A DNA stretch of 64,000 nucleotides from Pseudomonadota bacterium (GTDB taxonomy: Bacteria; Pseudomonadota; Alphaproteobacteria; Rickettsiales; SXRF01): assembly GCA_028873525.1 (NCBI GenBank), contig JAGWIM010000001.1, forward strand, positions 2,068 to 66,067, read 5' to 3'. Below, piece after piece: positions 13,387 to 36,315 of the stretch. The position numbers and the translations under genes were made by a program. Position 1 is the stretch's first letter, and the number at the start of each line of letters is the position of its first letter. The notes under the pieces were generated by a model. It saw only the letters and a program-made list of their open reading frames with translations, made no database searches and had not been told where the DNA came from.

Positions 13387-15940
<2,554 letters not shown>

Positions 15941-17144: not shown

Positions 17145-17179
17145 GGATCCTGCGTAGCCGCTTCGCGGCTCGCAGGATT
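17145..17179. repeat. 35-nt REP-like hairpin (GGATCCTGCG..GCTTCGC..CGCAGGATT family)
   Basis: ggatcctgcgtagccgcttcgcggctcgcaggatt. Lies inside the annotated 5' end of recF, next to the dnaN stop. Confidence 0.6.
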
Positions 17180-17184
17180 ATGGC

Positions 17185-18357
17185 TCATACCCTCATCGGC
17201 ATGATGACGTAGAGCGCGCCGACATCGGCGGTGTCGCGGACGATGGCGGGCGCGGCGCCGTCCGACAGCAGAAACTGCGCGGTGTCGCCCTCGATATTGG
17301 TCATCATATCGAGCAGGTAGCGCGAGTTGAAGCCGATCTCGATCAGCGTCGAGGCATAGGTGACGTCGATTTCCTCCGACGCCGTGCCCTGCTCGGCGCT
17401 GGAGGCCGACAGCGTCAGCTTGCCGTTTTCAATATGAAACTTGATGGCGCGCGATTTCTCCGATGAAATCACCGACACGCGGTCCACCGCTTCGGTGAAG
17501 GATTTGCGGTCGACTTCGAGAATCTTGTCGTTGCCGGAGGGGATGACGCGCTCGTAATCCGGGAAGTTGCCGTCGATGAGCTTCGACACCAGCACGGCAT
17601 TGCCGCAGACGAAGCGGATTTTCGCTTCCGACAGCGACACGCCGACATCGCCGCCGCTTTCCTCGAGCAGTTTTTTCAGCTCGTAAATCGCCTTGCGCGG
17701 CACGATGACGCCGGGCATCCCATCCGCCCCGGCGGGTGTCGCGGTTTCGATGCGCGCCAGCCGGTGGCCGTCGGTGGCGACGGCGCGCAGCGCCTTGGCT
17801 TTGCCGCTGCCGGAGAGGTGCAGGTAAATGCCATTCAGGTAATACCGCGTTTCCTCGGTCGAGATGGCGAAGCTCGGTTTTTCGATGAGCGATTTGCAGT
17901 CGGCGGCTTTCAGCGTGAAGTTAAAGGCCAGATCGCCGTCGGCCATCACCGGAAACTCATCCACCGGCAGGCAGGCCAGCGAGAAGCGCGAATGGCCGCT
18001 CTTGATGGTCACCTTGCTGTCGCCGGAGGAAAGCTCAATCTGCGCGCCTTCGGGGAGCTTGCGCACGATGTCATAAAACGTGTGCGCGGGAACGGTGGTG
18101 GCGCCGTTCTTGCTCACCGTCGCCGGAATTTTTTCGGCGATGGAAATGTCCATGTCGGTGGCGGTGAGGCTGACGCCGTCGCCCCTGGCCTCGATTTTCA
18201 CGTTGGAGAGCACGGCGATGGTGCCGCGCCGTTCGACGACGGATTGCACGTGCCCCAGCGCCTTCAGCAGATGCGCGCGCTCGATGGTGAATTTCATGGC
18301 GGAATCGCCGGCTGCGGCTTCCGGTGCTTTGCTGCGGGTGGCTGTGGCTGTGGTCAT
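17185..18357 (-). CDS. dnaN: DNA polymerase III subunit beta
   Basis: MKFTIERAHLLKAL...PMRV is typical of the sliding clamp. The conserved start is the ATG at 18297. The tracked ORF adds 20 N-terminal residues. Confidence 0.9.
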   Translation of the reverse strand: MTTATATRSKAPEAAAGDSAMKFTIERAHLLKALGHVQSVVERRGTIAVLSNVKIEARGDGVSLTATDMDISIAEKIPATVSKNGATTVPAHTFYDIVRKLPEGAQIELSSGDSKVTIKSGHSRFSLACLPVDEFPVMADGDLAFNFTLKAADCKSLIEKPSFAISTEETRYYLNGIYLHLSGSGKAKALRAVATDGHRLARIETATPAGADGMPGVIVPRKAIYELKKLLEESGGDVGVSLSEAKIRFVCGNAVLVSKLIDGNFPDYERVIPSGNDKILEVDRKSFTEAVDRVSVISSEKSRAIKFHIENGKLTLSASSAEQGTASEEIDVTYASTLIEIGFNSRYLLDMMTNIEGDTAQFLLSDGAAPAIVRDTADVGALYVIMPMRV

Positions 18358-18424
18358 AATTTTCTCCCTGTATTCTTTAATTAATCATTCCTTGGGAAAA
18401 AGGCAATGGATTTAAGAGATGGGA

Positions 18425-19027
18425 TTATATTTCCCTGGCGTGCGGCTTGTTGCCGCGATTATCTAAAATTGCATTTTCACTCATGGCGACTTCAATGGGC
18501 AAAAACATTGTGTCAAGCGCCTTGACCAAGGTAGCAATATTCCTCTTTCCTGACTCCCCTTCGGTGAGCGTATCAAGACGTAGCTGGCGTAACTCATCTG
18601 CCACAAATATGGCTGATATTCCGCTCACGAATAACATGGTGGGTGGCGCAACGTCTTTCAAGGCATCCATAATTCCCTCCGTTTTTGCTTTATTATCACG
18701 CATTCTGTTTCCCAGCCTCGCTGTTACGCCCCTAAAGCCAACGACGGTTGCTGCTAACGCAGCCGCGTTTATAAGCCAGTAGCGGCGATTAATCCTGGAT
18801 TTTCCGAAAACTTCAGCCAATGATTCTTTTTCGTTGTTATCCAGTCCTATGGTGGGGGAGCCATTCATAATGGCCCTGCGTATTTTATCCCAGAACTTCT
18901 CGAATGCATCAAAGCCATGTTTTTCAATGTGAATAGTGATAAAGCGCTTGCCAGAACTATCAGGCATGTTCCGCACATATTCGCAGAATATGTCCTGATT
19001 ACGCTTTTCTTCTTCGCCGGCGCTCAC
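18425..19027 (-). CDS. hypothetical membrane-associated protein inserted between dnaA and dnaN
   Basis: 200-aa ORF, AT-richer than its flanks. The GTG start overlaps the dnaA TGA (GTGA); an alternative ATG is at 18967. Two hydrophobic segments ([30 protein letters not shown]). No motif recognised. Confidence 0.5.
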
Positions 19028-20433
19028 CCCTGCAACATCCGGCTTAAAAGCTCAATATCCTTGGCGAACTCGTTGTCGGCGCCCATCAGCTCGTCGACGC
19101 GCTTCACCGCGTGCATGACGGTGGTGTGGTCCTTGCCGCCGAACCGCCGGCCGATTTCCGGCAGACTCTTGGAGGTGAATTTCTTGGACAGGTACATGGC
19201 GACCTGCCTTGGCCGCGCCACCACGCGCGAGCGCCGCGCCGAGTGCATGTCCGACACCTTGATGTTATAATGCTCGGCGGTGCGTTTCTGGATGTCCTCA
19301 ATGGTGAGTCTCCGGTCGTTTGCGCGCAATAAATCATGCAGCACTTCCTGCGTGGTTTCCAGCGTCACCGGGCGGCCGACCAGCGTTGCGTGCGCCACGA
19401 CGCGGTTCAGCGCGCCTTCCAGCTCGCGCACGTTGGAGGTGATGCGGTGCGCCAGGAATTCCGCCACCTTTTGTGGAATCGTCACGCCTTTCATCCGGTC
19501 AATCTTCGATTGCAAAATACCAAGGCGCAGCTCAAATGTCGTGGCGTGGATGTCGGCCACCAGCCCCCAGCCGAGCCGCGAGCGCACGCGCTCTTCCATG
19601 CCCTCCAAATCGGAGGGACTGCGGTCGCCGGAGAGGATCAACTGCTTGTTCTGGTCGACCAGCGCGTTAAAGGTGTGGAAAAATTCCTCCTGCGTGGCGT
19701 CCTTGCCGCTGATGAACTGCACGTCGTCAATCATCAGCACATCCACCGAGCGGAAATATTCCTTGAAGGCCAGCGCTTCCTTGAAGCGCAGCGCCTTGAT
19801 GAACTGATACATGAATTTTTCCGCCGAGAGATAGAGCACGCGGCGCTGCGGGTTGCTGCGGCGGATGTGCCAGGCGATGGCGTGCATCAGGTGGGTTTTG
19901 CCGAGGCCGACGCCGCCGTAAAGAAACAGCGGATTGCAGCCGGACACCACTTCCGTCGCCTCGGCGACGCGACGCGCCGCGGCATGCGCCAGTTCATTAG
20001 GCTTGCCGACGACGAAATTCTCGAACGTGTAACGCGGGTCAAGCGCCGCCCCTATCTGCACATCGGCCTCCGCAGTAATCGGCGTCTGCCAGTTTCCGGC
20101 GGTGATGACGTTCGACGCGGCAGCCGGCTCAGCGGGGGTAACGGCGGATAGTGCCGGCACGATAATATCAATCGTGTAGTCCGCCGCTTCCGGCTCCTGC
20201 TGCCAGAGGGCGCGAATGTCATCGCCATAATGCGAGGTGATCCATTCGCGCATGAAGCGCGTCGGCACGGAAAGCAGCACGCGACCGTCCTTGCTTCCGG
20301 CGTAACGCAGCGGCTTCAGCCAACTCTTGAACACGGCATCGCCGTACAGGGCGCCCAGTTTGCCGCTGACCCGCTCCCATACGAGCGCCAGCGTATCCTT
20401 GACTTTTTCCTGCCCTGCCGTTGCTAATGCCAT
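19024..20433 (-). CDS. dnaA: chromosomal replication initiator protein DnaA
   Basis: 469-aa ORF with AAA+ Walker A ([13 protein letters not shown]), Walker B (LMIDDVQF) and the domain IV block ([11 protein letters not shown]). Confidence 0.95.
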
Positions 20434-20509
20434 AATGTCGTCCTTTTGAAGTCAAAGAAAGAGCGTTCCGCCCTTTGGGGACGGCCGGGTTATTCCTGTA
20501 ATGGGGTGA

Positions 20510-20776
20510 TTAAGCGGCGAGCTTCTTGATGCGCGCCGACAACCGGCTCATCTTGCGCGACGCCGTGCCCAGCTTGACCACGCCTTTGCTGACGCCTTGC
20601 ATCAGTTCCGGCTGGGCTTCCCTGAGCGCCGCCTGCGCTGCCGTTTTATTTCCGGAGGCGATGGCGGTTTCGACTTTCTTAAGCGACGCTTTGATGACGC
20701 GCATACGCGATTGGTTGAGCGCCGTGCGCGTCGCCGTCTGGCGGATGCGTTTTTCTGCGGATTTATGGTTGGCCAT
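20510..20776 (-). CDS. rpsT: 30S ribosomal protein S20
   Basis: 88-aa ORF starting [13 protein letters not shown]. Confidence 0.9.
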
Positions 20777-21009
20777 AACAATTCCCGTTGACTAAAAAAA
20801 CTTGTTTCCCGAAAACACCGTTTGCATGTTGAGTTGAGTTTTTTCGTATGCCGCAAATCAGTGATAGGACTGCCGACACTAATGACGTTTTTTTGTTCGG
20901 TCAAGCGCTATTCTTGTAGCAGGAATATTTTTTATCGGCGCCCGGAGAACCCCAGATTTACTGGTATTTTTGCACATCGCCGGCAGCGGTACGGCGGCCT
21001 GCTTCATGC

Positions 21010-21849
21010 TTATTTCTGGCAGGTTTTGCAAAAGAAGGTTGAGCGCCCGCCCTGGCGGATAAGAAAAATTCTTTGATGGCAAACCGGGCAGGATTTTCCC
21101 TCGCGGCCATAAACACGAAACCGATGCTGAAAAAACCCCTCCTCGCCGGAGACGTGCCGGAAGTCGCGGAGGGACGATCCACCGGAGGCGATAGCCTCCT
21201 TCAGCACCTGCCGCACGGCGCCCGCTATTTTTGCCGCGTGATCCGCCGCCTTGTGCGAGGGCTTGCGTGGATCGACGCCGGCGAGAAATAACGCCTCGCT
21301 GGCGTAGATATTCCCCACGCCGGCCACCAGCGCCTGATCCATCAGCGCTGTTTTGACGGGGCCTTTGCGTTTTGCCAGCGCCGCTTTGAGATATTCCGGC
21401 GAAAACCCCTTCCGAAGCGGCTCCGGCCCGGTACCGGCAAACAGCTTGTGCGCCGCCAGTGCGCTCTTTTTCGCAACCGTCATCAGCCCGAACCGCCGCG
21501 GATCATTAAAGATAAGCGCCCGACCGTCTTTGAAGGTAAAAACCACATGGTCATGTTTACCCTCACTCCGCGCCGCCGCTTCGCAACCCACAGGATGACG
21601 GGCAATTAAAAACCGCCCGCTCATGCCCAGATGCGCGATGATCGCGTCATCGGAATCAAGGTTGAATACAAGATATTTGGCGCGCCGCTTGACCCGCAGG
21701 ATTTTCCGTCCGGCCAGCGCCCGCGCAAAACCATCTGGAAACGGCGCGCGCAAATCCTTGCGGCGCAGCATAACGCTTTCGATGACGGCATTTTCAAGCG
21801 CCGCATCCAGGCCGCGCCGCACGGTTTCGACTTCGGGTAATTCAGGCAT
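21010..21849 (-). CDS. mutM: formamidopyrimidine-DNA glycosylase
   Basis: [15 protein letters not shown]-terminus, H2TH region, and a C-terminal zinc finger (CPVCHQRI...FFCKTCQ). Confidence 0.9.
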
Positions 21850-21893
21850 GTTCCTGCTTTCGCACCGGCCACAATACTTGTATAAGCGTTTTC

Positions 21894-22634
21894 ATGTCCA
21901 GAAATACCACCTCTTTCGGTTTCAAAACCGTCGATGAAGATGAGAAACCGGCGCTGGTGCGCGGCGTGTTCGACGCGGTGGCTTCGCGCTACGACCTCAT
22001 GAACGACCTGATGAGCGGCGGATTGCATCGCTGGTGGAAGCGCGAGATGGTGGCGTGGCTGAATCCGCAGACAAACTGGCGCGTTCTCGACGTCGCCGGC
22101 GGCACAGGCGATATCGCCTTTCGCATATTAAGCCATGCGAAATGCCACGTCACTGTCTGCGACATCAACCAGCAGATGCTCAATGAAGGGCGCAACCGCG
22201 CCATCGACCGCAATATCCTGCATGACATCGAATGGCTGTGCGCCGACGCTGAATCGCTGCCGGTACCCGATAGCTCGTTTGATGCCTATAGCATCGCGTT
22301 TGGCATCCGCAACGTCACGCATATCGACCGCGCATTGCGCGAGGCCTACCGCGCGCTGAAACCCGGCGGCCGGTTTTTGTGCCTCGAATTTTCGCGTCCG
22401 GCGCACGACTGGATGCAGAAATGCTATGACGCTTATTCGTTTAACGTCATCCCGAAAATCGGCGAATGGGTCACCGGCAACGGCGATCCCTATAAATACC
22501 TCGTCGAAAGCATCCGCAAATTCCCGCCGCAGGAAGAATTCGCCACGCTCATGCGCGATGCCGGTTTCGGCAATGTGCAATACCGCAATCTCACACAAGG
22601 CGTCGTCGCCATGCATTCCGGGCGGAGGTTGTAA
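21894..22634 (+). CDS. ubiE: ubiquinone/menaquinone biosynthesis C-methyltransferase UbiE
   Basis: 246-aa ORF with [13 protein letters not shown], the SAM motif LDVAGGTGD, and FGIRNV. Confidence 0.9.
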
Positions 22635-22661
22635 TGCAGAATCCATCCGCAAATATTTATC

Positions 22662-22766
22662 CCCTCCCCCCTTGTGGGGGAGGGTTAGGGAGGGGGGGCG
22701 TCTTAGAAAAAGATTTTTCATTTAGATACCCCTTCCCCCTGCCCCCCTCCCACCAGGGGAGGGGGA
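22662..22766. repeat. pair of C/G-homopolymer hairpins (CCCTCCCCC..GGGGGAGGG type) flanking an AT-rich spacer
   Basis: ccctccccc-cttgt-gggggaggg at 22662-22684 and cccctccc-acca-ggggaggg near 22745-22766, directly upstream of the ubiB ATG. Related hairpins occur at 51082-51102 and about 51176-51199. Confidence 0.5.
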
Positions 22767-22767
22767 A

Positions 22768-24252
22768 ATGTTGAGGTCCGTCCGCAACAGCTTCCGCCTC
22801 ATTTCCATCGCGCTGATACTGGCGTCGGAGTTCGCCGTGCCGTCACGCCGCCGCAAGGGCGAGCGGCTGGCGCGCGCGCTGGAGCGGCTCGGCCCGGCGT
22901 TCATCAAACTCGGGCAGGCGCTCTCCACCCGCTCCGACCTCGTCGGCGAGCAGATGGCGGAAGACCTGGGCGGCCTGCGCGACCGGCTGCCCCCCTTCCC
23001 CGCTGCCGTCGCCGTCGCCACCGTCGAGGGCGATCTGAAAGCGCCGATTGATTCCCTGTACAGGCGCTTCGACGCCGTGCCGGTCGCCGCCGCCTCCATC
23101 GCGCAGGTGCACCGCGCCGTCACCGCAGACGGCCGCGATGTCGCCGTGAAAATTCTGCGCCCGCGCATCGAAGCGGCCTTCGCGCGCGACATGGACGTAT
23201 TTTTCTGGCTGGCGGAAATGATGAACCATCGTCCGCGCTGGCGCCGCCTCAAGCCGCTGGAGGTCGTGCGCACATTGCGGGAATCCGTGTTCTTCGAGCT
23301 TGATCTGCGGTTCGAGGCGGCCGCCGCTTCGGAGCTTGCCGACAACATCAAACATCACGAGCCGGGATTGCGCGTGCCCGCCGTAGACTGGAACCGCACC
23401 TCGCGGCGCGTGCTGACGATTGAATGGATTGACGGCATCCCGCTGGGCGATGTCGAAGCCATCCGGCGCAGCGGCTTCGACACGGACGCGGTGCTGGCCA
23501 AGGCGGCGCGCAGCCTGTTTTCGCAGGTATTCATCGACGGGTTTTTTCACGCCGATCTGCATCCGGGCAATCTGTTCGTCGATAAAAACGGCGACGTGGC
23601 GGCGGTGGATTTCGGCATCATGGGGCGGCTCGACCGCAACTCGCGCATGTACATGGCGGGCATCCTGCGCGGCTTCCTCACCGGCGATTACCGCCAGGTC
23701 GCCGAGATGCATTTCGCCGCCGGCTATGTGCCGCCGAATAAATCCGTCGAGGCCTTCGCGCAGGCCTGCATGGCGGTCGCGCGCCCGATCACCGGCAAGC
23801 CGCAGAACGAGATTTCGGTGGCGCGGCTGCTTGGCCAGATGTTTGCCATCGCCGCCGAATTTGAAATGGAAACGCAGCCGCAACTATTGCTCCTGCAGAA
23901 AACCATGATGGTCACCGAAGGCGTCGGGCGAATGCTGAATCCAACGCTTAACATCTGGGAGCTGGCGCGGCCATTGATTGAAGAATGGGCGGCAGAACAT
24001 TTCGGCCCGGCCGGAAAAATGAAAGATGCGGCGCGGCAGGGCTACGACACCGCCAGAAAATTCCCCGCCATGCTGCATTACATGGAAAACACCTTGAAAA
24101 ATTTTGGCGACGCGCAGGGCATCCGCCTGCATCCACTGTCCATCGCCGCGCTCGATGCCCACCGCCGCACCGCGCAGACAAGCTGGCTCATCCTCGGCTG
24201 GGCGGCGCTCATCGCCGCGGCGGTGTTAGGAGCGATGTGGGTGATGAAATGA
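22768..24252 (+). CDS. ubiB: ubiquinone biosynthesis regulatory protein kinase UbiB (ABC1 family)
   Basis: 494-aa ORF with FIKLGQALSTR, AAASIAQVH, HADLHPGN and a C-terminal TM helix. Confidence 0.85.
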   Translation: MLRSVRNSFRLISIALILASEFAVPSRRRKGERLARALERLGPAFIKLGQALSTRSDLVGEQMAEDLGGLRDRLPPFPAAVAVATVEGDLKAPIDSLYRRFDAVPVAAASIAQVHRAVTADGRDVAVKILRPRIEAAFARDMDVFFWLAEMMNHRPRWRRLKPLEVVRTLRESVFFELDLRFEAAAASELADNIKHHEPGLRVPAVDWNRTSRRVLTIEWIDGIPLGDVEAIRRSGFDTDAVLAKAARSLFSQVFIDGFFHADLHPGNLFVDKNGDVAAVDFGIMGRLDRNSRMYMAGILRGFLTGDYRQVAEMHFAAGYVPPNKSVEAFAQACMAVARPITGKPQNEISVARLLGQMFAIAAEFEMETQPQLLLLQKTMMVTEGVGRMLNPTLNIWELARPLIEEWAAEHFGPAGKMKDAARQGYDTARKFPAMLHYMENTLKNFGDAQGIRLHPLSIAALDAHRRTAQTSWLILGWAALIAAAVLGAMWVMK

Positions 24253-24452
24253 AAACCTTTGCCAGGAACGACAAATGGCCCATGATCCTTCTCAAAAAGA
24301 ATATTTTGCTATTCGTCTAGGCGTAATAAAATTTTGGAATACAGGTAGCTTTAGTCACCGTACCCGGCTATGACCCGGCCCCTGAATTATTAGCACATAG
24401 CGATTTTCGTTATCCTATTAGCTGGCCTACGCCATAATCAGCCGAGACTACG

Positions 24453-25472
24453 CTATTTCTTAAGAGCTATAAGCACCCCACCCCATTTCCTCGCTGTCGC
24501 CGCGAAGTCGTAGCGCTGCACGGTCTGCCAGCCGTTTTCGGCGAGTTGAGCCGCCAGCGCCGGTTGCGTCACCAGTGTTGCTAATGCTTCCGCCAGTGCA
24601 GGCGCATCATCACGCGGCACGATGATTCCGTCCACGCCATGCGTGAGCATCGCCGCCGGGCCGGGCGCGTTGGTAGCAACAATCGGCACGCCGTGCGCCA
24701 GCGCCTCCAGCACCACCATCGGGAAACTATCCTGCCGCGACGGGATGCACAGAATATCGATCCGGTTATAAAACCTGGTCTTGTCTTCAATCCATCCCGG
24801 CCACTCAACGTTCGCACCAATCCCAAGTTCCCCGGCCAGCGATTTCAGTTTTGCCGATTCTTCTCCGTCACCGGCGGCAACCGCCTTGAAGGCAATGCCG
24901 CGCTGCCGAATCTCGCCAAGCGCCTTGAGCAATACATCGAAGCCTTTTTCCGGCGACAGGCGGCCAATCGCGCCGATGACCGGCGGCCTCCGCCGTGGCC
25001 GCGCAACCGGTTTCTGCGGCAGGCGGATGAGGTTCGGAATCACTTCGATGCGCCCTTTGTAACCGGCAGCCAGAAAATGTTTTTTCATATGTTCCGAAAG
25101 TACAACCAGCACATCGGCGCGCATCGCACGCGCCGTTTTGTAGCTATGGCTGACGCCGACAACCGGAACGCCAAGTCCCTGCGCCGCAAAGGAAAGCAGC
25201 GTGATGGCGCGGGCATTATGCGCGACGATGATGTCCGGCTTGATCTGTTTCAGCAGCCGCCGCACGCGGAAAGCGGCGAAGACATCGTAAAATCCGAGCG
25301 GCGTCAGCGGCAGCGCGCGCGCGTGTTTCGCGGCGGCGGCGCGGTAGGGCGCATCGGCGCGCAGCAACTGCGTCACCTTATGCCCTTCCGAGACCAGCGC
25401 CTCCGTGGTATTGATGTAAGACTGCTCGAGGCCACCTAAGACAGGGGTAAACAGGGCGTGGAGGATGTGCAT
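24453..25472 (-). CDS. glycosyltransferase family 4 (GT-B, RfaG-like)
   Basis: 339-aa ORF with GRLSPEKG and the E-x7-E region (PSRQDSFPMVVLEALAHGVPIV). Confidence 0.75.
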   Translation of the reverse strand: MHILHALFTPVLGGLEQSYINTTEALVSEGHKVTQLLRADAPYRAAAAKHARALPLTPLGFYDVFAAFRVRRLLKQIKPDIIVAHNARAITLLSFAAQGLGVPVVGVSHSYKTARAMRADVLVVLSEHMKKHFLAAGYKGRIEVIPNLIRLPQKPVARPRRRPPVIGAIGRLSPEKGFDVLLKALGEIRQRGIAFKAVAAGDGEESAKLKSLAGELGIGANVEWPGWIEDKTRFYNRIDILCIPSRQDSFPMVVLEALAHGVPIVATNAPGPAAMLTHGVDGIIVPRDDAPALAEALATLVTQPALAAQLAENGWQTVQRYDFAATARKWGGVLIALKK

Positions 25473-25710
25473 CTGGCGACCGTGGATGGGGTTAAATCAG
25501 CCCGGAAAAATAGCAAATAAATGGGAAATAAACAGGGGGAAAATCAAAAATAATAGGAAAATAATGCAAAACAAATAGAAAAAAATGCCTTTTCATTCCT
25601 TGAATTTCCGCTGACCGAAAATGGCCGGCCATGCCCGTCGCAGGAGCGTGTAAAGCCTCCCCAAAAAAACTCCCTTAAAAAAAATCCTTCCTGAAATCTT
25701 AGAAATACCC

Positions 25711-25740
25711 CTTGAAACCGCGCCGCTTCGTCGCTATATC
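25711..25740 (+). promoter_or_regulatory. putative RpoH (sigma32)-type heat-shock promoter of groESL
   Basis: CTTGAAA (25711-25717), 16-nt spacer, CTATATC (25734-25740). This matches the alphaproteobacterial sigma32 consensus CTTG-N17-CYTATNT. It lies 91 nt upstream of the groES ATG. Confidence 0.45.
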
Positions 25741-25830
25741 AGCGTGCACTGCGGAGTCGGTGGGATTGCAAGCGCACCCCCGCCGTCGCCCGCAAAAATT
25801 TTAGCAAGCAACCCTGTAGGAGAATAAACT

Positions 25831-26145
25831 ATGAAAATCAGACCGTTAGGTGATCGCCTCGTCGTCGAGCGCATTGAACAGGATACCAAAACCGCCGGCG
25901 GCATCATCATCCCCGATACCGCCAAGGAAAAGCCCAAGTAGGGCAAGGTCATCGCTGTCGGATCAGGCAAAAAAGATAAGGACGGCAAGCGCTTACCGAT
26001 TGACGTCGAAGTCGGCGACATCGTGCTGTTCACGCAATGGGCCGGCAACGAAGTCAAGATTGAGGGCACGGAATACCTGATTTTACAGGAAGAAAACGTG
26101 CTCGGCATTGTCGAGAGCGGCCATTCCAAGAGGAAAGCTGCCTGA
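25831..26145 (+). pseudogene. groES: co-chaperonin GroES with an in-frame TAG at codon 37 (25939-25941)
   Basis: RBS TAGGAG, then [94 protein letters not shown]. GroES-like on both sides of the stop, all in one frame. Confidence 0.85.
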
Positions 26146-26260
26146 ATATCGATCCTGTGAGCCGCGCAGGCGGTTGCACAGTATCTGAAAATATATTTAT
26201 TAACCAAGACCCTGCGTAACCGCTACCGCGGTTCGCAGGATTAAAAAAGGAGTAAAAACC

Positions 26261-27922
26261 ATGTCAGCCAAAGAATTACGCTACGGTTCGGACGCGCGCG
26301 AGCAGATCATCATCGGCGCGGAAAAACTTGCCCGCGCCGTGAAAGCAACGCTGGGGCCGCGCGGCCGCAACGTCGTCATCGAGAAATCTTTCGGCGCGCC
26401 GCGCATAACCAAGGACGGTGTCTCGGTCGCCAAGGAAATCACGCTGGCCAACAAGTTCCAGAACATGGGCGCGCAGATGCTGCGCGAGGTCGCCAGTAAG
26501 TCGTCTGACTTAGCGGGTGACGGCACGACCACGGCCACGGTGCTGGCGCAAGCCATCTTCACCGAAGGCAGCAAGGCGGTAGCCGCCGGACTCAACCCGA
26601 TGGACCTGAAGCGCGGCATTGAAAAAGCCGTCGAAGCCGTCGTCGAGGAAATCAGGAAGAAAAGCAAGACTGTAAGCTCGAAGGCCGAATGGGCGCAGGT
26701 GGCGACCATTTCCGCCAACGGCGACAAGGAAGTCGGCCAGAAAATCGCCGAGGCGATGGAAAAAGTCGGCAAGGAAGGCGTCATCACGGTGGAAGAGGCC
26801 AAAGGCCTTGAGTTCGAGCTGGATACCGTCGAAGGAATGCAGTTCGATCGCGGTTATCTTTCCCCCTATTTCGTCACCAACGCCGAAAAAATGGTGGTCG
26901 AGCTGGAGAATCCCTATATCCTGATTTTTGAGAAGAAATTGTCGGGATTACAGCCGATGCTGCCGCTGCTTGAAGCGGTGGTGCAGCAACAGCGCCCGCT
27001 GCTCATCATCGCGGAGGACGTTGAAGGCGAAGCGCTGGCCACTCTCGTCGTCAACAAGCTGCGCGGCGGGCTGAAAGTGGCCGCCGTGAAAGCGCCGGGC
27101 TTCGGCGACCGCCGCAAGGCCATGCTCGATGACATCGCCATCTTAACCGCCGGCGAAGTCATCAGCGAAGACCTCGGCATCAAGCTGGAAAGCGTCACGG
27201 TCAAGAGCCTTGGCCGCGCCAAGAAGATCGTCATCGACAAGGACAACACCACCATCGTTGACGGCGCCGGAAAGAAAGACGACATCGGCGCGCGCTGCAA
27301 GCAGCTTCGCGCGCAGATTGAGGAAACCACCTCGGACTATGACCGTGAGAAGCTGCAGGAACGCCTGGCCAAGCTGGCCGGCGGCGTTGCCGTGCTGAAG
27401 GTCGGCGGATCGTCGGAAATCGAGGTGAAGGAGCGCAAGGATCGTGTTGACGACGCCCTGCATGCCACCCGCGCTGCGGTTGAAGAAGGCATCGTGCCGG
27501 GCGGCGGCTCTACGCTGCTTTACTGCTCGCGCCTTCTCGAGAAAATCCGCTGTGAGAACGACGACCAGAAAGCCGGCGTCGCCATTGTCAAGCGCGCGCT
27601 GCAGGCGCCGCTGCGGCAGATTGTCGAGAATGCGGGCTTAGACGGCGCGGTGGTCGCCGGCAAGCTGCTGGAATCCGCCGATACCAGCTTCGGTTTCGAC
27701 GCGCAGAAACTCGAATACTGCGACCTGATCAAGGCCGGCATCATCGACCCGACAAAGGTTGTGCGCACGGCGTTGCAGGGCGCGGCTTCGGTCGCCTCTC
27801 TCCTCATCACCACGGAAGCCATCATCGCCGATGTTCCGGACGATAAAAAGTCCGGCGGCGGCAGCGGCGGCGGCATGGGTGGAATGGGCGGCATGGGCGG
27901 CATGGGGGACATGGATTTCTAG
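26261..27922 (+). CDS. groEL: chaperonin GroEL
   Basis: 553-aa ORF with [12 protein letters not shown] and a C-terminal [14 protein letters not shown] tail. Ends in TAG. Confidence 0.97.
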
Positions 27923-27982
27923 CCTGATCCCGCGCAGGCCGGCGCAAGCCGGCACGTTGCGGGATTCTGTTAACCTTCTAAA

Positions 27983-28012
27983 GAGGCAGGAGAAATCCTG
28001 CCTCTTTTTTTT
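27983..28012 (+). terminator. rho-independent terminator of groESL
   Basis: GAGGCAGG-AGAAAT-CCTGCCTC followed by eight T residues. Confidence 0.75.
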
Positions 28013-28147
28013 GTTATTCAGCATACGGCCACCGCAGCGGGTGCCGGGCTATTTCTTCACGGAAACTTCACAATCCGCGCATTAAAAATATGGTAAAGTA
28101 AAGACAATCGGAAGGTGTGTCTTCACCCGTGCCTGTTCGCTGCGGCC

Positions 28148-28169
28148 TGAATTCCATATGAATTCCAAG
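28148..28169 (+). promoter_or_regulatory. 11-bp-phased direct repeat TGAATTCCATA / TGAATTCCAAG
   Basis: Two tandem 11-nt units about 100 nt upstream of the 28265 ORF. Related to TGACAATTCCA/TGACAATTCCG at 60961-60982. Confidence 0.3.
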
Positions 28170-28264
28170 GTCATCCGGGAGAACGCAAGGCTCGGTCGCT
28201 CCAGGATTTTCTGCGAAAATCCGGGTGATGACGACATCTTCAATCTTGATGGCAGACGTGGTTT

Positions 28265-29254
28265 ATGAGAGATTTAGATACTGAAAAACAAAAAGAACTA
28301 CAAAAACAACCGGCGCCGGGCGCTTCGGATGCGCCTGAAAAGCCGTTTATTTCCGCCGGGTGGCGTGTGCATAATGAACTCACCTACCGTGTCGTGGACT
28401 GGCTTGCCAATTCGGCCATCGGCGTCAGCTTCGCCTACTGGTCGGCGCGCACGAAAAGCGGCGCGACATATTTCGGCAAACCGGTCGGCAATTTTTTTCA
28501 GCGCATTCTCAGACCTCTGCTCAAAAACGAAAAGGCAGTCGAGGAAGGCGCGAAATGGGGCAGCATGTTCGCCAGCATCATGGCAGGCGGCACGGCCATC
28601 ATCCCGCCGCTGATGGCGCTGGAAAACAAGAAGGTCAAAAAATCCGTCATCCGCCGTCTCGATGAAAAAATCTACGGCAAGGAGACGGTGGAGAATGACC
28701 CGAAATTCGAGGAATCCTATTGCCGCATCGACGAGGAGCCGAAAAAAGGCTTCGTCACCGGCATGGCGGCGCGCATGATCGCCATTGCGCCGCTGATTAC
28801 CGTGGCCTCCCTGCCGGCGACCAACAAGCCGCTGATCAAATACATGTACGATCCGATCGGCAGGGGCAGTAAATGGCTGGTGGGCAAGATCGGCATCAAG
28901 CCGGGCAAAATGCTGGCCGAAGGAGCCATGGAGCGCATCGAGGGCGACCCCGGCATCCCTAAAAAATTTCAATCCAACTGGGACTTTTTACACCGCACTA
29001 TCGGGTTTGATTTCGGCCTGACGATTTTCTACTCCATCTTCCATGAAATCGCTTACAAAGCGCTGGCGGCGCTGGGAGTGGAGAAGGAAGAATTGCACAT
29101 CGAATCGGCCATCGCCGGGCCAAGCGCGCCTGCGCCGCCCTGCCCGCCGCCGTTTGCGCCGCACCAGAAACTTGCGCCGCCGCCCGCCTCCTATACCGAA
29201 AAACTCGCTGCCGAGGAGCGCGGCGCGCCAATACAGCCGGGAGTGTCCGCATGA
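28265..29254 (+). CDS. hypothetical polytopic membrane protein, paralogue 1 of 3
   Basis: 329 aa. Shares collinear blocks with the next two ORFs, for example MAGGTAIIPPLMALENKKVKKSVIRRLDEKIYG. Pro/Ala-rich C-terminal tail. Confidence 0.55.
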   Translation: MRDLDTEKQKELQKQPAPGASDAPEKPFISAGWRVHNELTYRVVDWLANSAIGVSFAYWSARTKSGATYFGKPVGNFFQRILRPLLKNEKAVEEGAKWGSMFASIMAGGTAIIPPLMALENKKVKKSVIRRLDEKIYGKETVENDPKFEESYCRIDEEPKKGFVTGMAARMIAIAPLITVASLPATNKPLIKYMYDPIGRGSKWLVGKIGIKPGKMLAEGAMERIEGDPGIPKKFQSNWDFLHRTIGFDFGLTIFYSIFHEIAYKALAALGVEKEELHIESAIAGPSAPAPPCPPPFAPHQKLAPPPASYTEKLAAEERGAPIQPGVSA

Positions 29255-29511
29255 CCGCCGTTTCCGGCATACCTCTGAAATAAAGCCGGCGGCGGGCTGC
29301 CGCACGTCGCAGCGTGAAAAAATAAGGACGGACAGGATGTTCGTTGGCAGGGAGGTGGGCGTGGCAAGGTAATGGCGTTCTTATTTTCTCATTGTACATC
29401 AAAGTATTGTTATTTCGTCATCAAACTTTCACACTACTGTTCCCTTTTTCATGCTAGAAATAAGGATGGGATACCGGGTTTTGCAGCCATCACCGGGATA
29501 TGAGATATTAA

Positions 29512-30546
29512 ATGATTGATATAAAAGAACAAAATGATGAAATACCCCCGGCACAGGCGGCTGCGGGGATGCCGGTCGCCGTGGATTGCGATGATCCCAA
29601 CCGGCCCAAGCCACAGATGAGCCTGGGCGAAAAACGCTACAACAACTTAGTGTACCGGGGGATGAACTACTGGTTAAATCTCGGTATTTCGCTGGCCGTT
29701 ACCGATTTCTTCGTGCACGGGCGCGGGAAAGGGTTCTTCGATAGCAACGTTAAACGCATCAGCAAGGGCTTGACCGCAACCGGGCTGAGAGCACGGGTAG
29801 CCAAACGCACTGCCGAAATCATGCTGGGAACCTTTACGCTCAACAGCGGCGGGAACATCCTTCTTATCCCGACGAAATTGCTTGAAGACCGCAAGCGCCC
29901 GTTTGTGCATTGGCTCAATAAAAAAATGGGCGTCAGCCAGATCGCGCCTGACGGTCACGAGGAAACGTCCGATGAAATCTACATCGAACAGGAGCAACCC
30001 CGGCAAAGCTGGGGGCGCATGGTGTGGCGGCGCACATTGGGGTGGGCGGCGACGACTATCGCCGGGCTTGGCATCGACACTGCGCTGGCGCAGAAATTGC
30101 CGGTGCCGCAGGGGATAAACGGCGACACGATTACTCACGTAAACGGACAGAAAATCTTCACTGACGCCATGGTCAAGGGCGGCAGCGCCGTGCTTAATTC
30201 CGGGTTCATTCCGGGCGGAAAAGCCGTCGCCGCCAGCCCGGCCGCGCAACGCTACATGGGCTATGCCGCGCTGGACTGGATATATACCATCATCACCTCG
30301 AAAATCCTGCATATGACCAACGGCGCGCACAAGGAAAGAGAACCCGGGGAAATCAACGATGAATGCTCGCCGCCCGCACCTGTGGACAAGCAGCCGCCGG
30401 CCTACGATCTGCAACCCCAGGCGGCGCCGGAGAGCGGGCCGGCGCAACCCGCCGGGTTCCAGAATCGCCTGGGAGCAAAGCCGCGGAAAAGCCATGCGGC
30501 GCAGGTGGCCGCGCCGCCGGAGGATGGCGTGACGCTGGGGGCTTAA
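29512..30546 (+). CDS. hypothetical polytopic membrane protein, paralogue 2 of 3
   Basis: 344 aa. LNSGGNILLIPTKLLEDRKRPFVHWLNKKMG and EQPRQSWGRMVWRRTLGWA blocks. Pro/Gln/Ala-rich tail. Confidence 0.55.
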   Translation: MIDIKEQNDEIPPAQAAAGMPVAVDCDDPNRPKPQMSLGEKRYNNLVYRGMNYWLNLGISLAVTDFFVHGRGKGFFDSNVKRISKGLTATGLRARVAKRTAEIMLGTFTLNSGGNILLIPTKLLEDRKRPFVHWLNKKMGVSQIAPDGHEETSDEIYIEQEQPRQSWGRMVWRRTLGWAATTIAGLGIDTALAQKLPVPQGINGDTITHVNGQKIFTDAMVKGGSAVLNSGFIPGGKAVAASPAAQRYMGYAALDWIYTIITSKILHMTNGAHKEREPGEINDECSPPAPVDKQPPAYDLQPQAAPESGPAQPAGFQNRLGAKPRKSHAAQVAAPPEDGVTLGA

Positions 30547-31520
30547 TGAGCAACACACCGATAATCGCCGCATTGCCGAAAGAACCGCCTCCCACGGAAA
30601 CTTCCGGCGTCGCTGATTTACCCAAAACCACCGGAGAAAAATTTTACGATGGCCTGCAGTTCACCGTAGGCAAGGCCATGATCGTGGTGATCACGGCGGC
30701 GCTGGCCAATGTCGCAAAATATGGCAGGGATAGTTATGGCCCCGTGCCGAATTACCTGAAAAAATTCCAGGGATGGTTTCACCGCACATTGCTCACCAAC
30801 TCCACCCTGCCTTTGGGCGGCAAGGGAGAATTCGCCGAACGCGCCGCCAACGCCGCCACCAATACCATGGTCGTGTGCCATGGCGGCAATGCCTTCGCGC
30901 CGGTTATGAAATGGATGGAAAACAACCGTGAGGACATCGCCAATTTTATCAACCGGCGCTGGGGCAAGCCGGGCGAAACGGAGATTGCCCACGAACGGTT
31001 GAAGAACAATCCGCACCAGACCTGGGGAGATATTTTCAAGGGACGCATGGCCGCGTGGGGACTTGTTTTTGGCGGTTTCATGAGCATAGACGCGATCATC
31101 GGCAAGGATAAAAAAACCGGGCTGTATCATTTCGATAAATACGAAGAATGGTTCGGACGAAAGCTGGCCGGTTTCAGCAAGACCGGCAAGGACATCGCTC
31201 AAATTTCCGTCGGCACGGCGCTAAGCCGGGCGCAGGAAGCGAACAAGTTCTACCGCTTTGGCAAGGTGACGGCGCTGGATCTCTATGCCACGAGCGCCGC
31301 CATCGTCATCTGGAATTTCGTCAGCCGCCTTTCCGCAAAAAAACGCCATGAACAAAACAGGCGCATATCGGCGGAGGGCGCGCCGGCGGAAAAAGACGAC
31401 GCCGGAACCATGCCCGCATCCGCCGACGCCAGGCGTTTCAGCGATTTCCCGTCCCGCGCCGGCAGTTTTTCCAACGCCGTCCGCAGTGACCAGCCCGCCG
31501 CGCTATCGCCTTCCCTTTAA
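30546..31520 (+). CDS. hypothetical polytopic membrane protein, paralogue 3 of 3
   Basis: 324 aa from the ATG at 30546, which overlaps the stop of paralogue 2 (TAATG). VCHGGNAFAPVMKWMENNREDIANFINRRWG and NNPHQTWGDIFKGRMAAWG blocks. The tracked ORF start at 30363 lies inside paralogue 2. Confidence 0.55.
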   Translation: MSNTPIIAALPKEPPPTETSGVADLPKTTGEKFYDGLQFTVGKAMIVVITAALANVAKYGRDSYGPVPNYLKKFQGWFHRTLLTNSTLPLGGKGEFAERAANAATNTMVVCHGGNAFAPVMKWMENNREDIANFINRRWGKPGETEIAHERLKNNPHQTWGDIFKGRMAAWGLVFGGFMSIDAIIGKDKKTGLYHFDKYEEWFGRKLAGFSKTGKDIAQISVGTALSRAQEANKFYRFGKVTALDLYATSAAIVIWNFVSRLSAKKRHEQNRRISAEGAPAEKDDAGTMPASADARRFSDFPSRAGSFSNAVRSDQPAALSPSL

Positions 31521-31598
31521 TAAAAACACTGGCTATAATGGCACATTGCAATTAATGGGTAGTTTGAAATAGCCGATTAACCAGCAACTACCGGCCGC

Positions 31599-33476
31599 AT
31601 GAGACATTCCTGGACACAGCCGTCGCTCTCGCGTGATTTCGCCCTGCTGGCGACAGCGGTGTTGTTTCTTCTCTGCCTGGTGTCGGCCTGGGTAACTTAT
31701 GCCACCTATGCCCAGTATGGCGCGCGCATCGCCAGCGATCTCGATAAGCAATCCATCCGTATCGAATACGCGCTGGGCGATGAGATGGAAAATGCCAGTT
31801 ACCTGCTGACGGCGCTGGGCAGGGACATCGTTCTCGACCCGGACCGCAACCTGACCGCTCTCGCGCAGATACTTAAATCCTTCGATAGCCGCGAATCGAC
31901 TTACACCCTGTTTTCCTGGGTGACGCCCAAGCATTACCTCGTCATCAGCAGCAGCAAGGGCGTGCTCGATTCTCCCATTGATGTGTCCGACCGTGATTAT
32001 ATTAAAAAAATGACCGAGCCATGGAAAATGGTCATAGGCCAACCGGTCCGGGGGCGCGCCTCGGAGCACTGGGTAATCCCGCTGGCGATGGGACTGACCG
32101 ACAATACCGGCAAATTTATCGGCACGCTTCTGATCAGCATTGATATTCGCGCGCTGGTCGATCACATAGGCGCGCTGGTGCGGCACGACGGGATCAGCTT
32201 TTCCATCGTTAACCGGAGCGCCGCGCTGGAGCCTCTGCTGGCCGGCGACAGCGCCTTCATCAGCCATTATTTTCCGGCGAACATATTGCCGGGAGTCAAC
32301 CTGGCGCAGCACCCCAGCGGTCTCATCGCGCAAGGCAGCCTGTTCCTCGGCACCGGCAATTACGCCTGCTGGCGCGCCCTGCAAAAATACCCTTATGTCG
32401 TGCTGCTGGGCTACGATACGCGCTTCAGCGATAAAATGGTGCGTGGCATGTTGTGGTCGCGCCTGGAGGAATTGCTGTTGATTTCAGGATTCCTGGTGCT
32501 GGTGCTGTGGGTGATCCGCGCGCGGCTGATTAAACCGGTGCAGGATATGACGATGGCGGCGGCGGCAGTGGCGCGCGGCGAAGCCTGCGCGTCGCCGTCC
32601 GGCGGCGGGCCGGTGGAAATCGAAGCGCTGGCGACGCAGATTTACCGCATCAGCGAATATATCAACGAGAGCAAGCGCGTTCACGACGAACTGCACAACA
32701 AAATTTTTACGCTGGGGAAAGCCCGCGCACGCGCCGAGTTGGACAAACGCGGCAAATCGGAATTCGTGGTCTGGATATGCCAGGAATTGCAGACGCCGCT
32801 GACGCATCTTGTCGGCTTCGCGCAGGTGATGAAAGACCAGCTTTACGGCCCCATCGAAAACCGCAAATACCGCCAATATGCCTCCGACATCCACGGCACC
32901 GGAGCCGCAATGCTGGAAACGCTGCACGAGTTGATGACGCTGGCCAAGGCCGAAACCGATACCCTCCGCCTGGTGGAAAAACCGGTGGAACTCGCGGGTG
33001 TCATCAATAAGGCGCTGCGCTTTACCGCCGATAAGCTTGAAGCTGGCAAACTCAACGTCAAGGTAAAATTCCCCGACCCGGCGCCAAGGCTGGTTGCCGA
33101 CGAGTTCCGCCTTCAGCAGATCATCGTCAACCTGCTGCTCTACGCGCTGGGGCAGGCGCGCCCTGAGAGCACGCTGCTGCTGGAGGCGCGCGTCGTCAAT
33201 GAAAACCGTGACAAAACATTTTTCGCGGTGATCATCACTCCAGGCGATGCCCCGCTATCGCCGGAAGAGATGACGGCCATCGCCGAGCGGGCGATGTTCT
33301 CGCCGCATCCGTCGCCGCGTCACGCCGACGAGACGGAGGCAGATTTAAGTCTGGAACTGGCGAAGGCGCTGACTGCGCTGCATCGCGGCGTTATCGATAT
33401 CGTGCGTCTGGCCGATGGCCAGCTTGCCATCGCCGTCCTCTTCGCCGGAAACCGCATTCGTTTCGTGGACGGATGA
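31599..33476 (+). CDS. Cache-domain sensor histidine-kinase homologue with degenerate catalytic motifs (pseudokinase candidate)
   Basis: 625 aa: TM, a periplasmic Cache-like region, TM, then DHp and CA. The H-box reads CQELQTPL (Gln codon at 32781-32783 where His is expected). The N-box reads NLLLYALGQA. No recognisable G1/G2 boxes. Confidence 0.7.
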   Translation: MRHSWTQPSLSRDFALLATAVLFLLCLVSAWVTYATYAQYGARIASDLDKQSIRIEYALGDEMENASYLLTALGRDIVLDPDRNLTALAQILKSFDSRESTYTLFSWVTPKHYLVISSSKGVLDSPIDVSDRDYIKKMTEPWKMVIGQPVRGRASEHWVIPLAMGLTDNTGKFIGTLLISIDIRALVDHIGALVRHDGISFSIVNRSAALEPLLAGDSAFISHYFPANILPGVNLAQHPSGLIAQGSLFLGTGNYACWRALQKYPYVVLLGYDTRFSDKMVRGMLWSRLEELLLISGFLVLVLWVIRARLIKPVQDMTMAAAAVARGEACASPSGGGPVEIEALATQIYRISEYINESKRVHDELHNKIFTLGKARARAELDKRGKSEFVVWICQELQTPLTHLVGFAQVMKDQLYGPIENRKYRQYASDIHGTGAAMLETLHELMTLAKAETDTLRLVEKPVELAGVINKALRFTADKLEAGKLNVKVKFPDPAPRLVADEFRLQQIIVNLLLYALGQARPESTLLLEARVVNENRDKTFFAVIITPGDAPLSPEEMTAIAERAMFSPHPSPRHADETEADLSLELAKALTALHRGVIDIVRLADGQLAIAVLFAGNRIRFVDG

Positions 33477-33583
33477 AATGGCGCGCGGCATCGACCCTTG
33501 CCAGAGCACCGGAAATAATGTGCCTTTTATCGGAAACGCTATTATTTTTTCACGCTCAACGCGGCAGGACATGGACATTCTTG

Positions 33584-34402
33584 TTACCCATGCTCCGCCA
33601 CCGCTGCCGGTGCGGTGACCATATGCAGGCCTATCTCCTGCAGCGCAAATTGCCCGCGTTCGCTTAAGTCAGCGATGAACTTGAACTGCTCGCGCGCTTC
33701 CATGGGGTAGGCTTTGAGCTTGTAATAAAGCCCGAACGGCAAGTGCTTCATGACGACGACGATGGGGCGGTCGAGATGGAGATAGACACTCGTCATCGCC
33801 ACATCGAACAAGGCCTGGCGGGCAAGTGTATTATCGTGATCGGGGTGGACATAAAAGATGGCAAAGCAGAGTAAATCATGCGCGCCGCTGGTGGCGTTGG
33901 AGAGCTGGCCGTGCCAGAGCGTGCTGTGCGGAACGGTGATGTCGTTGGCATCGATGGTGCGGATCAGCACCGTGCGCATACCCAGATGCACGACCTCGCC
34001 ATATGTTTCGCCGATCTGTATCCAGTCACCGACGCGGTAAGGCCGCTCGAACATGAAGATGATTCCGGCGATCAGGCAACTGATGTAATCCTTGATGGCG
34101 AAACCAATGGCCAGTGCCGAAGCGCCGACCAGCGCCAGCACGTTTTCGCGCGTCGGCGTGATGACGATGGGCACAATCATCGATAGCGCTATGAGAATAA
34201 TGACAAGCCGCAGAAACGGAATCCACGGCAGCGCGTAAAACCGCTCATCGGGGCGGAACAGGCCGGTGATGAACGGCACCAGGCGGCGGATAATCTCGTA
34301 GGCGATCCATGCGCCGGCGATAATCGACAGAATATGGATCGGCTCGTAGCCTTCCCATTCGCGCAACATGTCTATCCAATGTTCGGTCATGATGTCCTCC
34401 AT
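33584..34402 (-). CDS. mechanosensitive ion channel (MscS family) protein
   Basis: 272 aa, three N-terminal TM helices, then FERPYRVGDWIQIGETYGEVVHLGMRTVLIRT, typical of the MscS beta-domain. Confidence 0.8.
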   Translation of the reverse strand: MEDIMTEHWIDMLREWEGYEPIHILSIIAGAWIAYEIIRRLVPFITGLFRPDERFYALPWIPFLRLVIILIALSMIVPIVITPTRENVLALVGASALAIGFAIKDYISCLIAGIIFMFERPYRVGDWIQIGETYGEVVHLGMRTVLIRTIDANDITVPHSTLWHGQLSNATSGAHDLLCFAIFYVHPDHDNTLARQALFDVAMTSVYLHLDRPIVVVMKHLPFGLYYKLKAYPMEAREQFKFIADLSERGQFALQEIGLHMVTAPAAVAEHG

Positions 34403-34432
34403 AAATCCTGTAATTACCGAAGATGCTGCACG

Positions 34433-34467
34433 GGATCCTGCGCTGGCGCTTCGCGTCCCGCAGGATT
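34433..34467. repeat. 35-nt REP-like hairpin (same family as 17145-17179)
   Basis: ggatcctgcgctggcgcttcgcgtcccgcaggatt, intergenic between the 260-aa ORF and the MscS gene. Confidence 0.6.
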
Positions 34468-34472
34468 AATGC

Positions 34473-35255: not shown

Positions 35256-35598
35256 ATTTTTCTATGCTTCCGAATAGCAACCTATAGTAGAAAAATAAAA
35301 AATCAACTACAAATAAAAGTTGTATATGAACAAGATGTACATATTGTCGGTTGTCTTTATCGGGGAGTGCCAATCCATGAAACCTGCCTTAACCGCCAGT
35401 GCCGTCGCGACGTTGTGCTTTAGCGCGGCGGAAGCCAAACGCCGCGCACGCCCGGCGCTCGGAAACGCGCCAACGCCGATGTGATGACCAGAGCGGCATC
35501 GGGCTTGGCGTTAAACCACTTGATGAAACCAGCCGTCTCTTTTTCCAGGCGGTCATAGGTAGGCGCTTCGTAATGCGCCTTCTCGCGGCCTGTAAGTG

Positions 35599-35675
35599 TG
35601 GCGCACCCGGAGCGACTCGAACGCCCGACCCTCAGATTCGTAGTCTGATGCTCTATCCAACTGAGCTACGGGTGC
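35599..35675 (-). tRNA. tRNA-Arg (anticodon ACG)
   Basis: The reverse complement folds as a cloverleaf: acceptor GCACCCG/CGGGTGC, anticodon stem TCAGA/TCTGA with loop CTACGAA, T-arm GTTCGAGTC, encoded CCA. 77 nt. Confidence 0.9.
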
Positions 35676-35855
35676 AATATACGATTGCCGAATATACCGG
35701 CAAAGGCTTGACGAAGGGTGGAAAGCTAGCCAACGCGCGGCGAAAAGACAAGAGATTTGTTAAAGCGGCGCGCCGGCTTCCCATATCCGCATTGACGGCG
35801 GCGCTCCCATCATTTACCCTTTGGGCATTCGGTTTCAATCATCAGGAGAGTCGTT

Positions 35856-36311: not shown

Positions 36312-36315
36312 GAGA

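What the first reader, a model, noticed from the sequence alone, without database searches (positions are those of the whole stretch)
25831..26145. groES carries an in-frame amber codon while groEL and the heat-shock promoter look intact
From the ATG at 25831 (RBS TAGGAG) the frame reads a normal GroES N-terminus up to ...[12 protein letters not shown]. It then reads TAG (25939-25941) and continues in the same frame with GKVIAVGSGKK...GDIVLFTQWAGNEVKIEGTEYLILQEENVLGIVE to the TGA at 26143-26145. The stop occupies the position of the Q/E in the conserved AKEKPxxG(E/K)V segment, so a single CAG-to-TAG transition explains it. TAG is a true terminator elsewhere in the window: rpsA ends at 7712-7714 and groEL at 27920-27922, both at canonical lengths. 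Three explanations remain. It could be a base-call or assembly error. It could be a very recent inactivation tolerated because another groES copy exists. Or it could be translational read-through or suppression of an essential gene.
Basis: partly seen in the sequence, partly recalled or inferred. Interest (0 to 1): 0.65.

Follow-up and report, generated by a model that had tools for sequence, protein, structure and literature searches.

The report
Lone amber codon in groES: probable error
The in-frame TAG in groES is really in this sequence, but the only other public assembly of the same genome matches at 51,148 of 51,149 compared bases and reads CAG (Gln) there, so it is most likely a one-base error or a very recent private mutation, not a recoding signal.

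Summary
groES (25831-26145, +) has TAG at 25939-25941, at codon 37, and is otherwise a full-length 104-codon Cpn10 gene. It sits behind a conserved sigma-32-type promoter and in front of an intact groEL.

Seven contigs of the NCBI MAG GCA_028873305.1 cover 51,149 nt (80%) of the window. They differ from it at one base only: 25939, T in the window and C in the MAG. The MAG's GroES (MDE3038816.1) is intact.

All sequenced relatives have CAG at this codon. Gln fills the position in 102 of the 108 closest GroES proteins. None of the other 165 groES loci fetched has a stop inside the domain. Codons 38-104 show strong purifying selection (dN/dS 0.07-0.22) and carry no second lesion.

TAG is an ordinary terminator in this genome. 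There is no RNA structure after the stop and no suppressor tRNA in the window.

Most likely this is a base-call, consensus or editing error. Less likely it is a very recent nonsense allele. Programmed read-through has no support. Interest is low.

The parts
25708..25741 (+). sigma-32 (RpoH)-type heat-shock promoter candidate: CCCCTTGAAA (25708-25717), a 16-nt spacer, then CTATATCA (25734-25741)
   Evidence: Read directly. Both boxes are invariant in an alignment with three relatives whose surrounding intergenic DNA has diverged. That this matches the alphaproteobacterial heat-shock promoter consensus is from my own knowledge. No CIRCE element occurs anywhere in the window.
25817..25822 (+). 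groES ribosome-binding site TAGGAG, 8 nt before the ATG
   Evidence: The GGAG core is conserved in relatives.
25831..26145 (+). groES (Cpn10), 104 codons, interrupted at codon 37
   Evidence: The sister-assembly gene is annotated PF00166, co-chaperone GroES.
25939..25941 (+). in-frame TAG (amber) in place of CAG (Gln37); base 25939 is T here and C in GCA_028873305.1
   Evidence: Searches show this is the single mismatch in 3,140 nt. One search shows CAG in the MAG, in a relative with 94% amino-acid identity and in two relatives with 80% amino-acid identity.
26151..26242 (+). long hairpin filling the 115-nt groES-groEL spacer; not part of the amber question, but part of the operon
   Evidence: -52.3 kcal/mol, z = -9.27, and 0 of 200 shuffles fold as well. 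Relatives have spacers of only 24-29 nt.
26247..26252 (+). groEL's own ribosome-binding site AAGGAG, 8 nt before the ATG
26261..27922 (+). groEL (Cpn60), 553 aa, intact, ends in TAG
   Evidence: It is identical to the MAG protein.
27980..28017 (+). intrinsic-terminator-like hairpin plus T run after groEL
   Evidence: 12-pair stem followed by TTTTTTGTTAT.

Best explanation
The TAG is a private one-base C-to-T change of the Gln37 codon (CAG) that exists only in this copy of the sequence. Most likely it is not biological. It could be a base-call, consensus or polishing error, or some other alteration of the record. In that case the organism's groES is the intact 104-codon gene seen in the sister assembly.

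Taken literally, translation would stop after 36 residues, which cover the first strand and the mobile loop only. That product lacks the beta-barrel and would be a dead co-chaperonin. groEL has its own RBS and would still be translated.

Shown here:
- the base difference;
- that CAG is the ancestral state;
- that there are no other differences or lesions;
- that TAG works as a normal stop in this genome.

Inferred: that the T is an error rather than a real minority or recent allele.
For: 1. Seven contigs of NCBI MAG GCA_028873305.1 map to the window as follows:
- 716-18222
- 22598-25295
- 25292-28431
- 28510-33961
- 39107-45298
- 45278-55576
- 57610-63495
That is 51,149 non-redundant nt with no indel and a single mismatch, at 25939. 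The MAG gene is annotated as an intact GroES.

2. Codon 37 is CAG in every relative whose DNA was fetched. The residue is Q in 102 of the 108 closest proteins. Of the 166 groES loci fetched from public collections, none has a stop inside the domain.

3. Codons 38-104 are identical to the intact copy. Against relatives they give dN/dS of 0.066 and 0.22. That part of the gene has therefore been translated throughout its history and shows no decay.

4. A lone, maximally disruptive change in a normally essential gene, inside otherwise identical DNA, fits an error better than a variant that rose to consensus under selection (inference). Only about 4% of random substitutions here give a stop. But this window reached me because it has a stop, so that rarity does not argue against an error.
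Against: No reads are available, so I cannot say which assembly is right. Agreement of the MAG with all homologues shows that C is ancestral, not that T is false.

The window's assembly is otherwise error-free over 51 kb, with no indels, so it is not a generally sloppy sequence.

G:C-to-A:T transitions are also the commonest real spontaneous mutations (my own knowledge).

I could not establish whether the window and the MAG come from the same sample or the same reads.
Confidence: 0.68

Rival explanations
1. This is a real, very recent nonsense allele: a strain or sub-population in which this groES copy has just been knocked out. It would be tolerated because the genome carries a second groES or groESL elsewhere, or it would be a transient deleterious variant caught by the consensus of one sample.
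For: Two assemblies disagree at exactly one base, as expected for a new mutation in a clonal population. C-to-T is the commonest class of spontaneous mutation, and many Alphaproteobacteria carry several groESL operons (both points are my own knowledge, not tested here). groEL keeps its own RBS and a 115-nt spacer, so losing groES translation need not abolish GroEL.
Against: There is no second groES or groEL in the 64-kb window. The locus is the conserved syntenic copy (ubiE-ubiB-GT4-...-groES-groEL). It has the conserved heat-shock promoter, so it looks like the main housekeeping copy. There is no other lesion and no relaxation of constraint. No other substitution occurs in 51 kb, so the event would have to be extremely young.
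Confidence: 0.25
2. The amber is real and is decoded. Read-through by a Gln-inserting suppressor tRNA, or by near-cognate tRNA-Gln(CUG), would restore wild-type Gln37 and yield full-length GroES at reduced level.
For: UAG is one step from CAG, and the classic amber suppressor supE inserts Gln (my own knowledge), so read-through would rebuild the native protein exactly. The downstream frame is perfectly intact.
Against: The stop is absent from a genome identical at all other 51,148 compared bases and from all relatives, so nothing suggests a selected recoding site. RNA after the stop folds no better than shuffles (z = -0.74). There is no Rfam match. The only tRNA in the window is Arg-ACG. TAG ends 12 of 60 long ORFs, including rpsA, groEL and tatC, which an efficient amber suppressor would damage. 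The following base is G, which is not a notably leaky context in E. coli (my own knowledge).
Confidence: 0.05
3. TAG is a sense codon in this organism, through a genetic-code change or pyrrolysine.
For: Only the in-frame TAG itself.
Against: TAG terminates conserved genes at their canonical lengths, and no other conserved gene in the window needs TAG read as sense. The sister assembly encodes Gln with CAG here.
Confidence: 0.01

Closest known systems
Apparent pseudogenes caused by single-base errors in draft or metagenome assemblies
   Same: One isolated substitution breaks an otherwise perfect, highly conserved, strongly constrained gene. A second assembly of the same genome and all homologues have the sense codon.
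   Different: Errors are usually diagnosed from reads, which I do not have. The rest of the window shows no other discrepancy in 51 kb, so there is no general signature of poor quality.
Redundant groESL operons of Alphaproteobacteria (for example the multiple copies in Bradyrhizobium and Sinorhizobium; my own knowledge)
   Same: In such genomes individual groES/groEL copies can be lost without lethality, which is the only way a real null here could persist.
   Different: No paralogue was seen in the window. This copy is the syntenic one driven by the sigma-32-type promoter. Copy number in this genome is unknown.
Amber suppression by tRNA-Gln (supE-type), or near-cognate read-through of UAG (my own knowledge)
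   Same: The codon is UAG derived from CAG, so Gln insertion would recreate the native protein.
   Different: No suppressor tRNA was found, the stop is not conserved, there is no stimulatory structure, and TAG is used widely as a terminator.

Membership tests
GroES / Cpn10 co-chaperonin gene (PF00166) | Full-length Cpn10 domain | tested here: met
   The read-through product is 100% identical to P0001, which carries PF00166 over its 104 aa. There are 8,000 homologues with E <= 0.001.
GroES / Cpn10 co-chaperonin gene (PF00166) | Lies immediately upstream of groEL in one operon | tested here: met
   groEL at 26261-27922, promoter candidate at 25708-25741, terminator at 27980-28017. The same arrangement is seen in relatives.
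GroES / Cpn10 co-chaperonin gene (PF00166) | Uninterrupted reading frame | tested here: not met
   TAG at codon 37 in the window. The frame is uninterrupted in the sister assembly.
Programmed stop-codon read-through / recoding site | The stop codon is conserved at the same position in orthologues | tested here: not met
   CAG in the MAG that matches at every other compared base, and in all relatives aligned. None of the other 165 groES loci has a stop inside the domain.
Programmed stop-codon read-through / recoding site | A stimulatory RNA structure or motif 3' of the stop | tested here: not met
   The fold of 25930-26050 gives z = -0.74, with 43 of 200 shuffles folding as well. No Rfam hit comes near its threshold.
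Programmed stop-codon read-through / recoding site | A cognate suppressor tRNA or other decoding machinery in the genome | not testable with these tools
   Only tRNA-Arg(ACG) is found in the window.
Reassigned TAG codon / pyrrolysine | TAG avoided as a terminator and recurring in frame in conserved genes | tested here: not met
   TAG ends rpsA, groEL and tatC, and 12 of 60 long ORFs. Gene lengths are canonical.
Decaying pseudogene | Several disabling lesions and/or relaxed constraint (dN/dS approaching 1) | tested here: not met
   There is one lesion only. Downstream codons are identical to the intact copy. dN/dS is 0.066 and 0.22 against relatives.
Decaying pseudogene | A functional paralogue that makes the loss tolerable | not testable with these tools
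   None in the window.

The most novel reading that the evidence does not exclude
The T is real and fixed in a lineage whose only groES carries an amber codon. Cells would survive because UAG is read as Gln, by a suppressor or near-cognate tRNA-Gln. That would regenerate wild-type GroES and would be a natural case of an essential chaperone gene depending on stop-codon suppression.
Probability: 0.03. Interest if true: 0.6.

Novelty: not a real feature. Interest (0 to 1): 0.07.

Why it matters
If it is an error, the value is practical. A single wrong base turns an essential, universally conserved gene into an apparent pseudogene. That would mislead annotation, completeness and essential-gene scoring, and pseudogene counts for this genome. 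It also shows that comparison with a sister assembly settles such cases cheaply.

If the T were real, it would bear on groES redundancy or natural amber suppression. Nothing found here points that way.

Tried and rejected
1. Exact-pattern scans with N at the variable base (42 nt around the site) found nothing in genome contigs or metagenome contigs. So there is no third assembly of this strain and no route to the window's source record.

They returned only distant relatives, with best identity 65% and 70%. These served only as a base rate for in-frame stops and for residue 37.

3. Exact look-ups found neither the two peptides that a gene caller could emit from the amber allele (36 aa and 40 aa) nor any other contig encoding them.

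4. My own six-frame screen for other stop-interrupted ORFs in the window was too noisy: 70 candidates, mostly antisense frames, and it missed groES itself. I rely instead on the identity to annotated intact MAG genes.

5. The CIRCE operator search with 3 mismatches gave 0 hits. The Rfam search gave only chance-level hits.

6. Literature searches produced nothing that bears on the question. The MAG accession prefix gave 0 papers. 'groES + premature stop codon + pseudogene' gave 18 papers (10 listed); judging from the 10 listed titles and abstracts (none was opened), they are unrelated symbiont or pathogen genome papers.

7. Three look-ups of window proteins failed: 28265-29251, 39278-40099 and 19027-20433. 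The likely reason is that those genes are split, missing or start differently in the fragmented MAG.

8. A genetic-code change was considered and rejected from stop-codon usage.

Full report
**The observation**

- An ATG at 25831 is preceded by TAGGAG at 25817-25822.
- It opens a frame that reads [36 protein letters not shown].
- The frame then meets TAG at 25939-25941.
- It continues in the same frame as GKVIAVGSGKKDKDGKRLPIDVEVGDIVLFTQWAGNEVKIEGTEYLILQEENVLGIVESGHSKRKAA to TGA at 26143-26145.

groEL follows at 26261-27922 (553 aa, ending in TAG). It has its own AAGGAG, and a terminator-like hairpin follows at 27980-28017.

**What the gene is**

With codon 37 read as Gln, the product is 100% identical to an annotated 104-aa co-chaperone GroES (P0001 = MDE3038816.1, PF00166). 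It has thousands of homologues.

The amber falls on a conserved residue.
- It is Q in 102 of the 108 closest GroES proteins, with K in 5 and H in 1.
- It is E in 94, Q in 68 and K in 4 of 166 groES loci fetched from genome and metagenome collections.
- None of the other 165 loci has a stop inside the domain.

**The decisive comparison**

Looking up the window's own proteins by exact sequence led each time to one assembly, the NCBI MAG GCA_028873305.1 ('Pseudomonadota bacterium'). It is much more fragmented than the window. Seven of its contigs map onto the window:

| MAG contig | Locus | Window range | Identity |
|---|---|---|---|
| JAGWKI010000017 | L003 | 716-18222 | 100% |
| ...211 | L002 | 22598-25295 | 100% |
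| ...192 | L001 | 25292-28431 | one mismatch |
| ...133 | L091 | 28510-33961 | 100% |
| ...117 | L090 | 39107-45298 | 100% |
| ...067 | L004 | 45278-55576 | 100% |
| ...126 | L092 | 57610-63495 | 100% |

This gives 51,149 non-redundant bases, 80% of the window, with no indel and exactly one mismatch. That mismatch is window 25939, T in the window and C in the MAG. So the MAG reads CAG (Gln) and encodes an intact GroES.

That condition is met. One caveat remains: I cannot tell whether the two assemblies derive from the same reads.

**History of the codon**

DNA of the nearest relatives has CAG at codon 37 throughout. The relatives are an ENA contig with 94% protein identity, and GCA_964469525.1 and a Logan contig with 80%.

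Downstream of the stop the window is identical to the intact MAG gene. Against the relatives the constraint is strong:

| Codons | dN/dS vs 94% relative | dN/dS vs 80% relative |
|---|---|---|
| 38-104 | 0.066 | 0.22 |
| 1-36 | 0 | 0.01 |

The whole frame, including the part after the amber, has therefore been translated and constrained until now. The TAG is younger than any other substitution in 51 kb. This is not a decaying pseudogene.

**Is TAG decoded?**

Nothing says so.
- TAG terminates rpsA, groEL and tatC at their annotated lengths, and it ends 12 of 60 long ORFs. The code is standard, and an efficient amber suppressor would be costly.
- The only tRNA in the window is Arg-ACG.
- The 120 nt after the stop fold no better than shuffles (z = -0.74).
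- Rfam gives only chance-level hits.
- A recoding site would be expected to be conserved. This one is absent from a genome identical at every other compared base.

**Surroundings**

The operon looks fully functional.
- CCCCTTGAAA (25708-25717), a 16-nt spacer and CTATATCA (25734-25741) are invariant among relatives whose flanking intergenic DNA has diverged. To my knowledge this matches the alphaproteobacterial sigma-32 heat-shock promoter type.
- No CIRCE operator is present.
- The neighbourhood fpg-ubiE-ubiB-GT4-...-groES-groEL is syntenic with a relative. This is therefore the ancestral housekeeping copy, not a spare.
- No second groES or groEL lies in the window.

**Weighing the explanations**

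A literal reading gives a 36-residue fragment. It has the first strand and the mobile loop but no beta-barrel, so by inference from GroES structure it is inactive.

For a gene that is essential in model bacteria, a null allele should not become the consensus of a population unless a paralogue exists. An error needs no such help.

About 4% of random substitutions in this gene create a stop. That rarity does not argue against an error, because the window was selected for having a stop.

My estimates:
- non-biological error (base call, consensus, polishing or later alteration of the record): about 0.68;
- real, very recent nonsense allele tolerated by redundancy or caught transiently: about 0.25;
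- suppression or read-through: about 0.05;
- code change: about 0.01.

What I cannot do is see reads or the rest of the genome. Exact-pattern scans of the genome and metagenome collections found neither allele. Protein-seeded scans returned only distant relatives.

**Verdict**

The interesting readings are not supported. This is best filed as an artefact, or at most an ephemeral private mutation, in an otherwise ordinary groESL operon.

Noticed in passing
window 26146-26260 (hairpin 26151-26242): The groES-groEL spacer is 115 nt and folds into one long, very stable hairpin (-52.3 kcal/mol, z = -9.27). Relatives have spacers of only 24-29 nt, so about 90 nt of palindromic DNA was inserted between the two genes in this lineage. 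It is also present in the MAG. It might be a transcript-processing or stabilising element, or a small palindromic mobile element. It is not repeated elsewhere in the window.
   Followed up: partly
window 13387-20433, minus strand: The cluster dnaA (19024-20433, Pfam-confirmed), a 200-aa ORF with no Pfam hit (18425-19027), dnaN, recF and gyrB lies only about 5 kb from groESL. The window therefore probably spans the chromosomal origin region, yet the cumulative GC skew shows no clear turning point there.
   Followed up: partly
window 43035-44225: An IS1595-family transposase gene (43545-44225, minus strand) and an adjacent low-GC3 ORF (43035-43511, GC3 0.41) sit between the tatA/tatB-like genes and tatC. 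This looks like an insertion splitting the tat operon.
   Followed up: no
window 7722-8303; 11915-12298; 41403-42103: Three small toxin-antitoxin-like modules are interspersed among housekeeping genes. They are a nucleotidyltransferase/HepT pair after rpsA, a PemK-type toxin wedged between trpB and trpA, and a Phd/YefM antitoxin with a 147-aa partner that has no Pfam hit, next to serS.
   Followed up: no
window 51617-55719: Two consecutive large membrane-protein ORFs of 962 aa and about 426 aa have no Pfam hit. They share recurring motifs (for example ...NYAPLYTY...FKPQ...), and the 962-aa protein itself looks like an internal duplication.
   Followed up: no
window 61097-62836: A 579-aa protein has its only Pfam hit to PF07382 (HC2, a histone-H1-like nucleoprotein). 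Its GC3 is unusually low for this genome (0.51).
   Followed up: no
MAG contig ends at window 25292-25295 and 45278-45298: Adjacent contigs of GCA_028873305.1 overlap by 4 nt and 21 nt where the window is continuous. The gaps 18223-22597, 28432-28509, 33962-39106 and 55577-57609 are not covered by any of the seven MAG contigs retrieved. The window therefore comes from a more contiguous assembly of the same strain, which none of the searchable collections holds.
   Followed up: partly
tools: The exact GroEL sequence was found on a contig by the look-up of encoding contigs, but the listing of cluster members reported it as 'not in the collection'. These are minor tool inconsistencies and do not affect the conclusions.
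   Followed up: no
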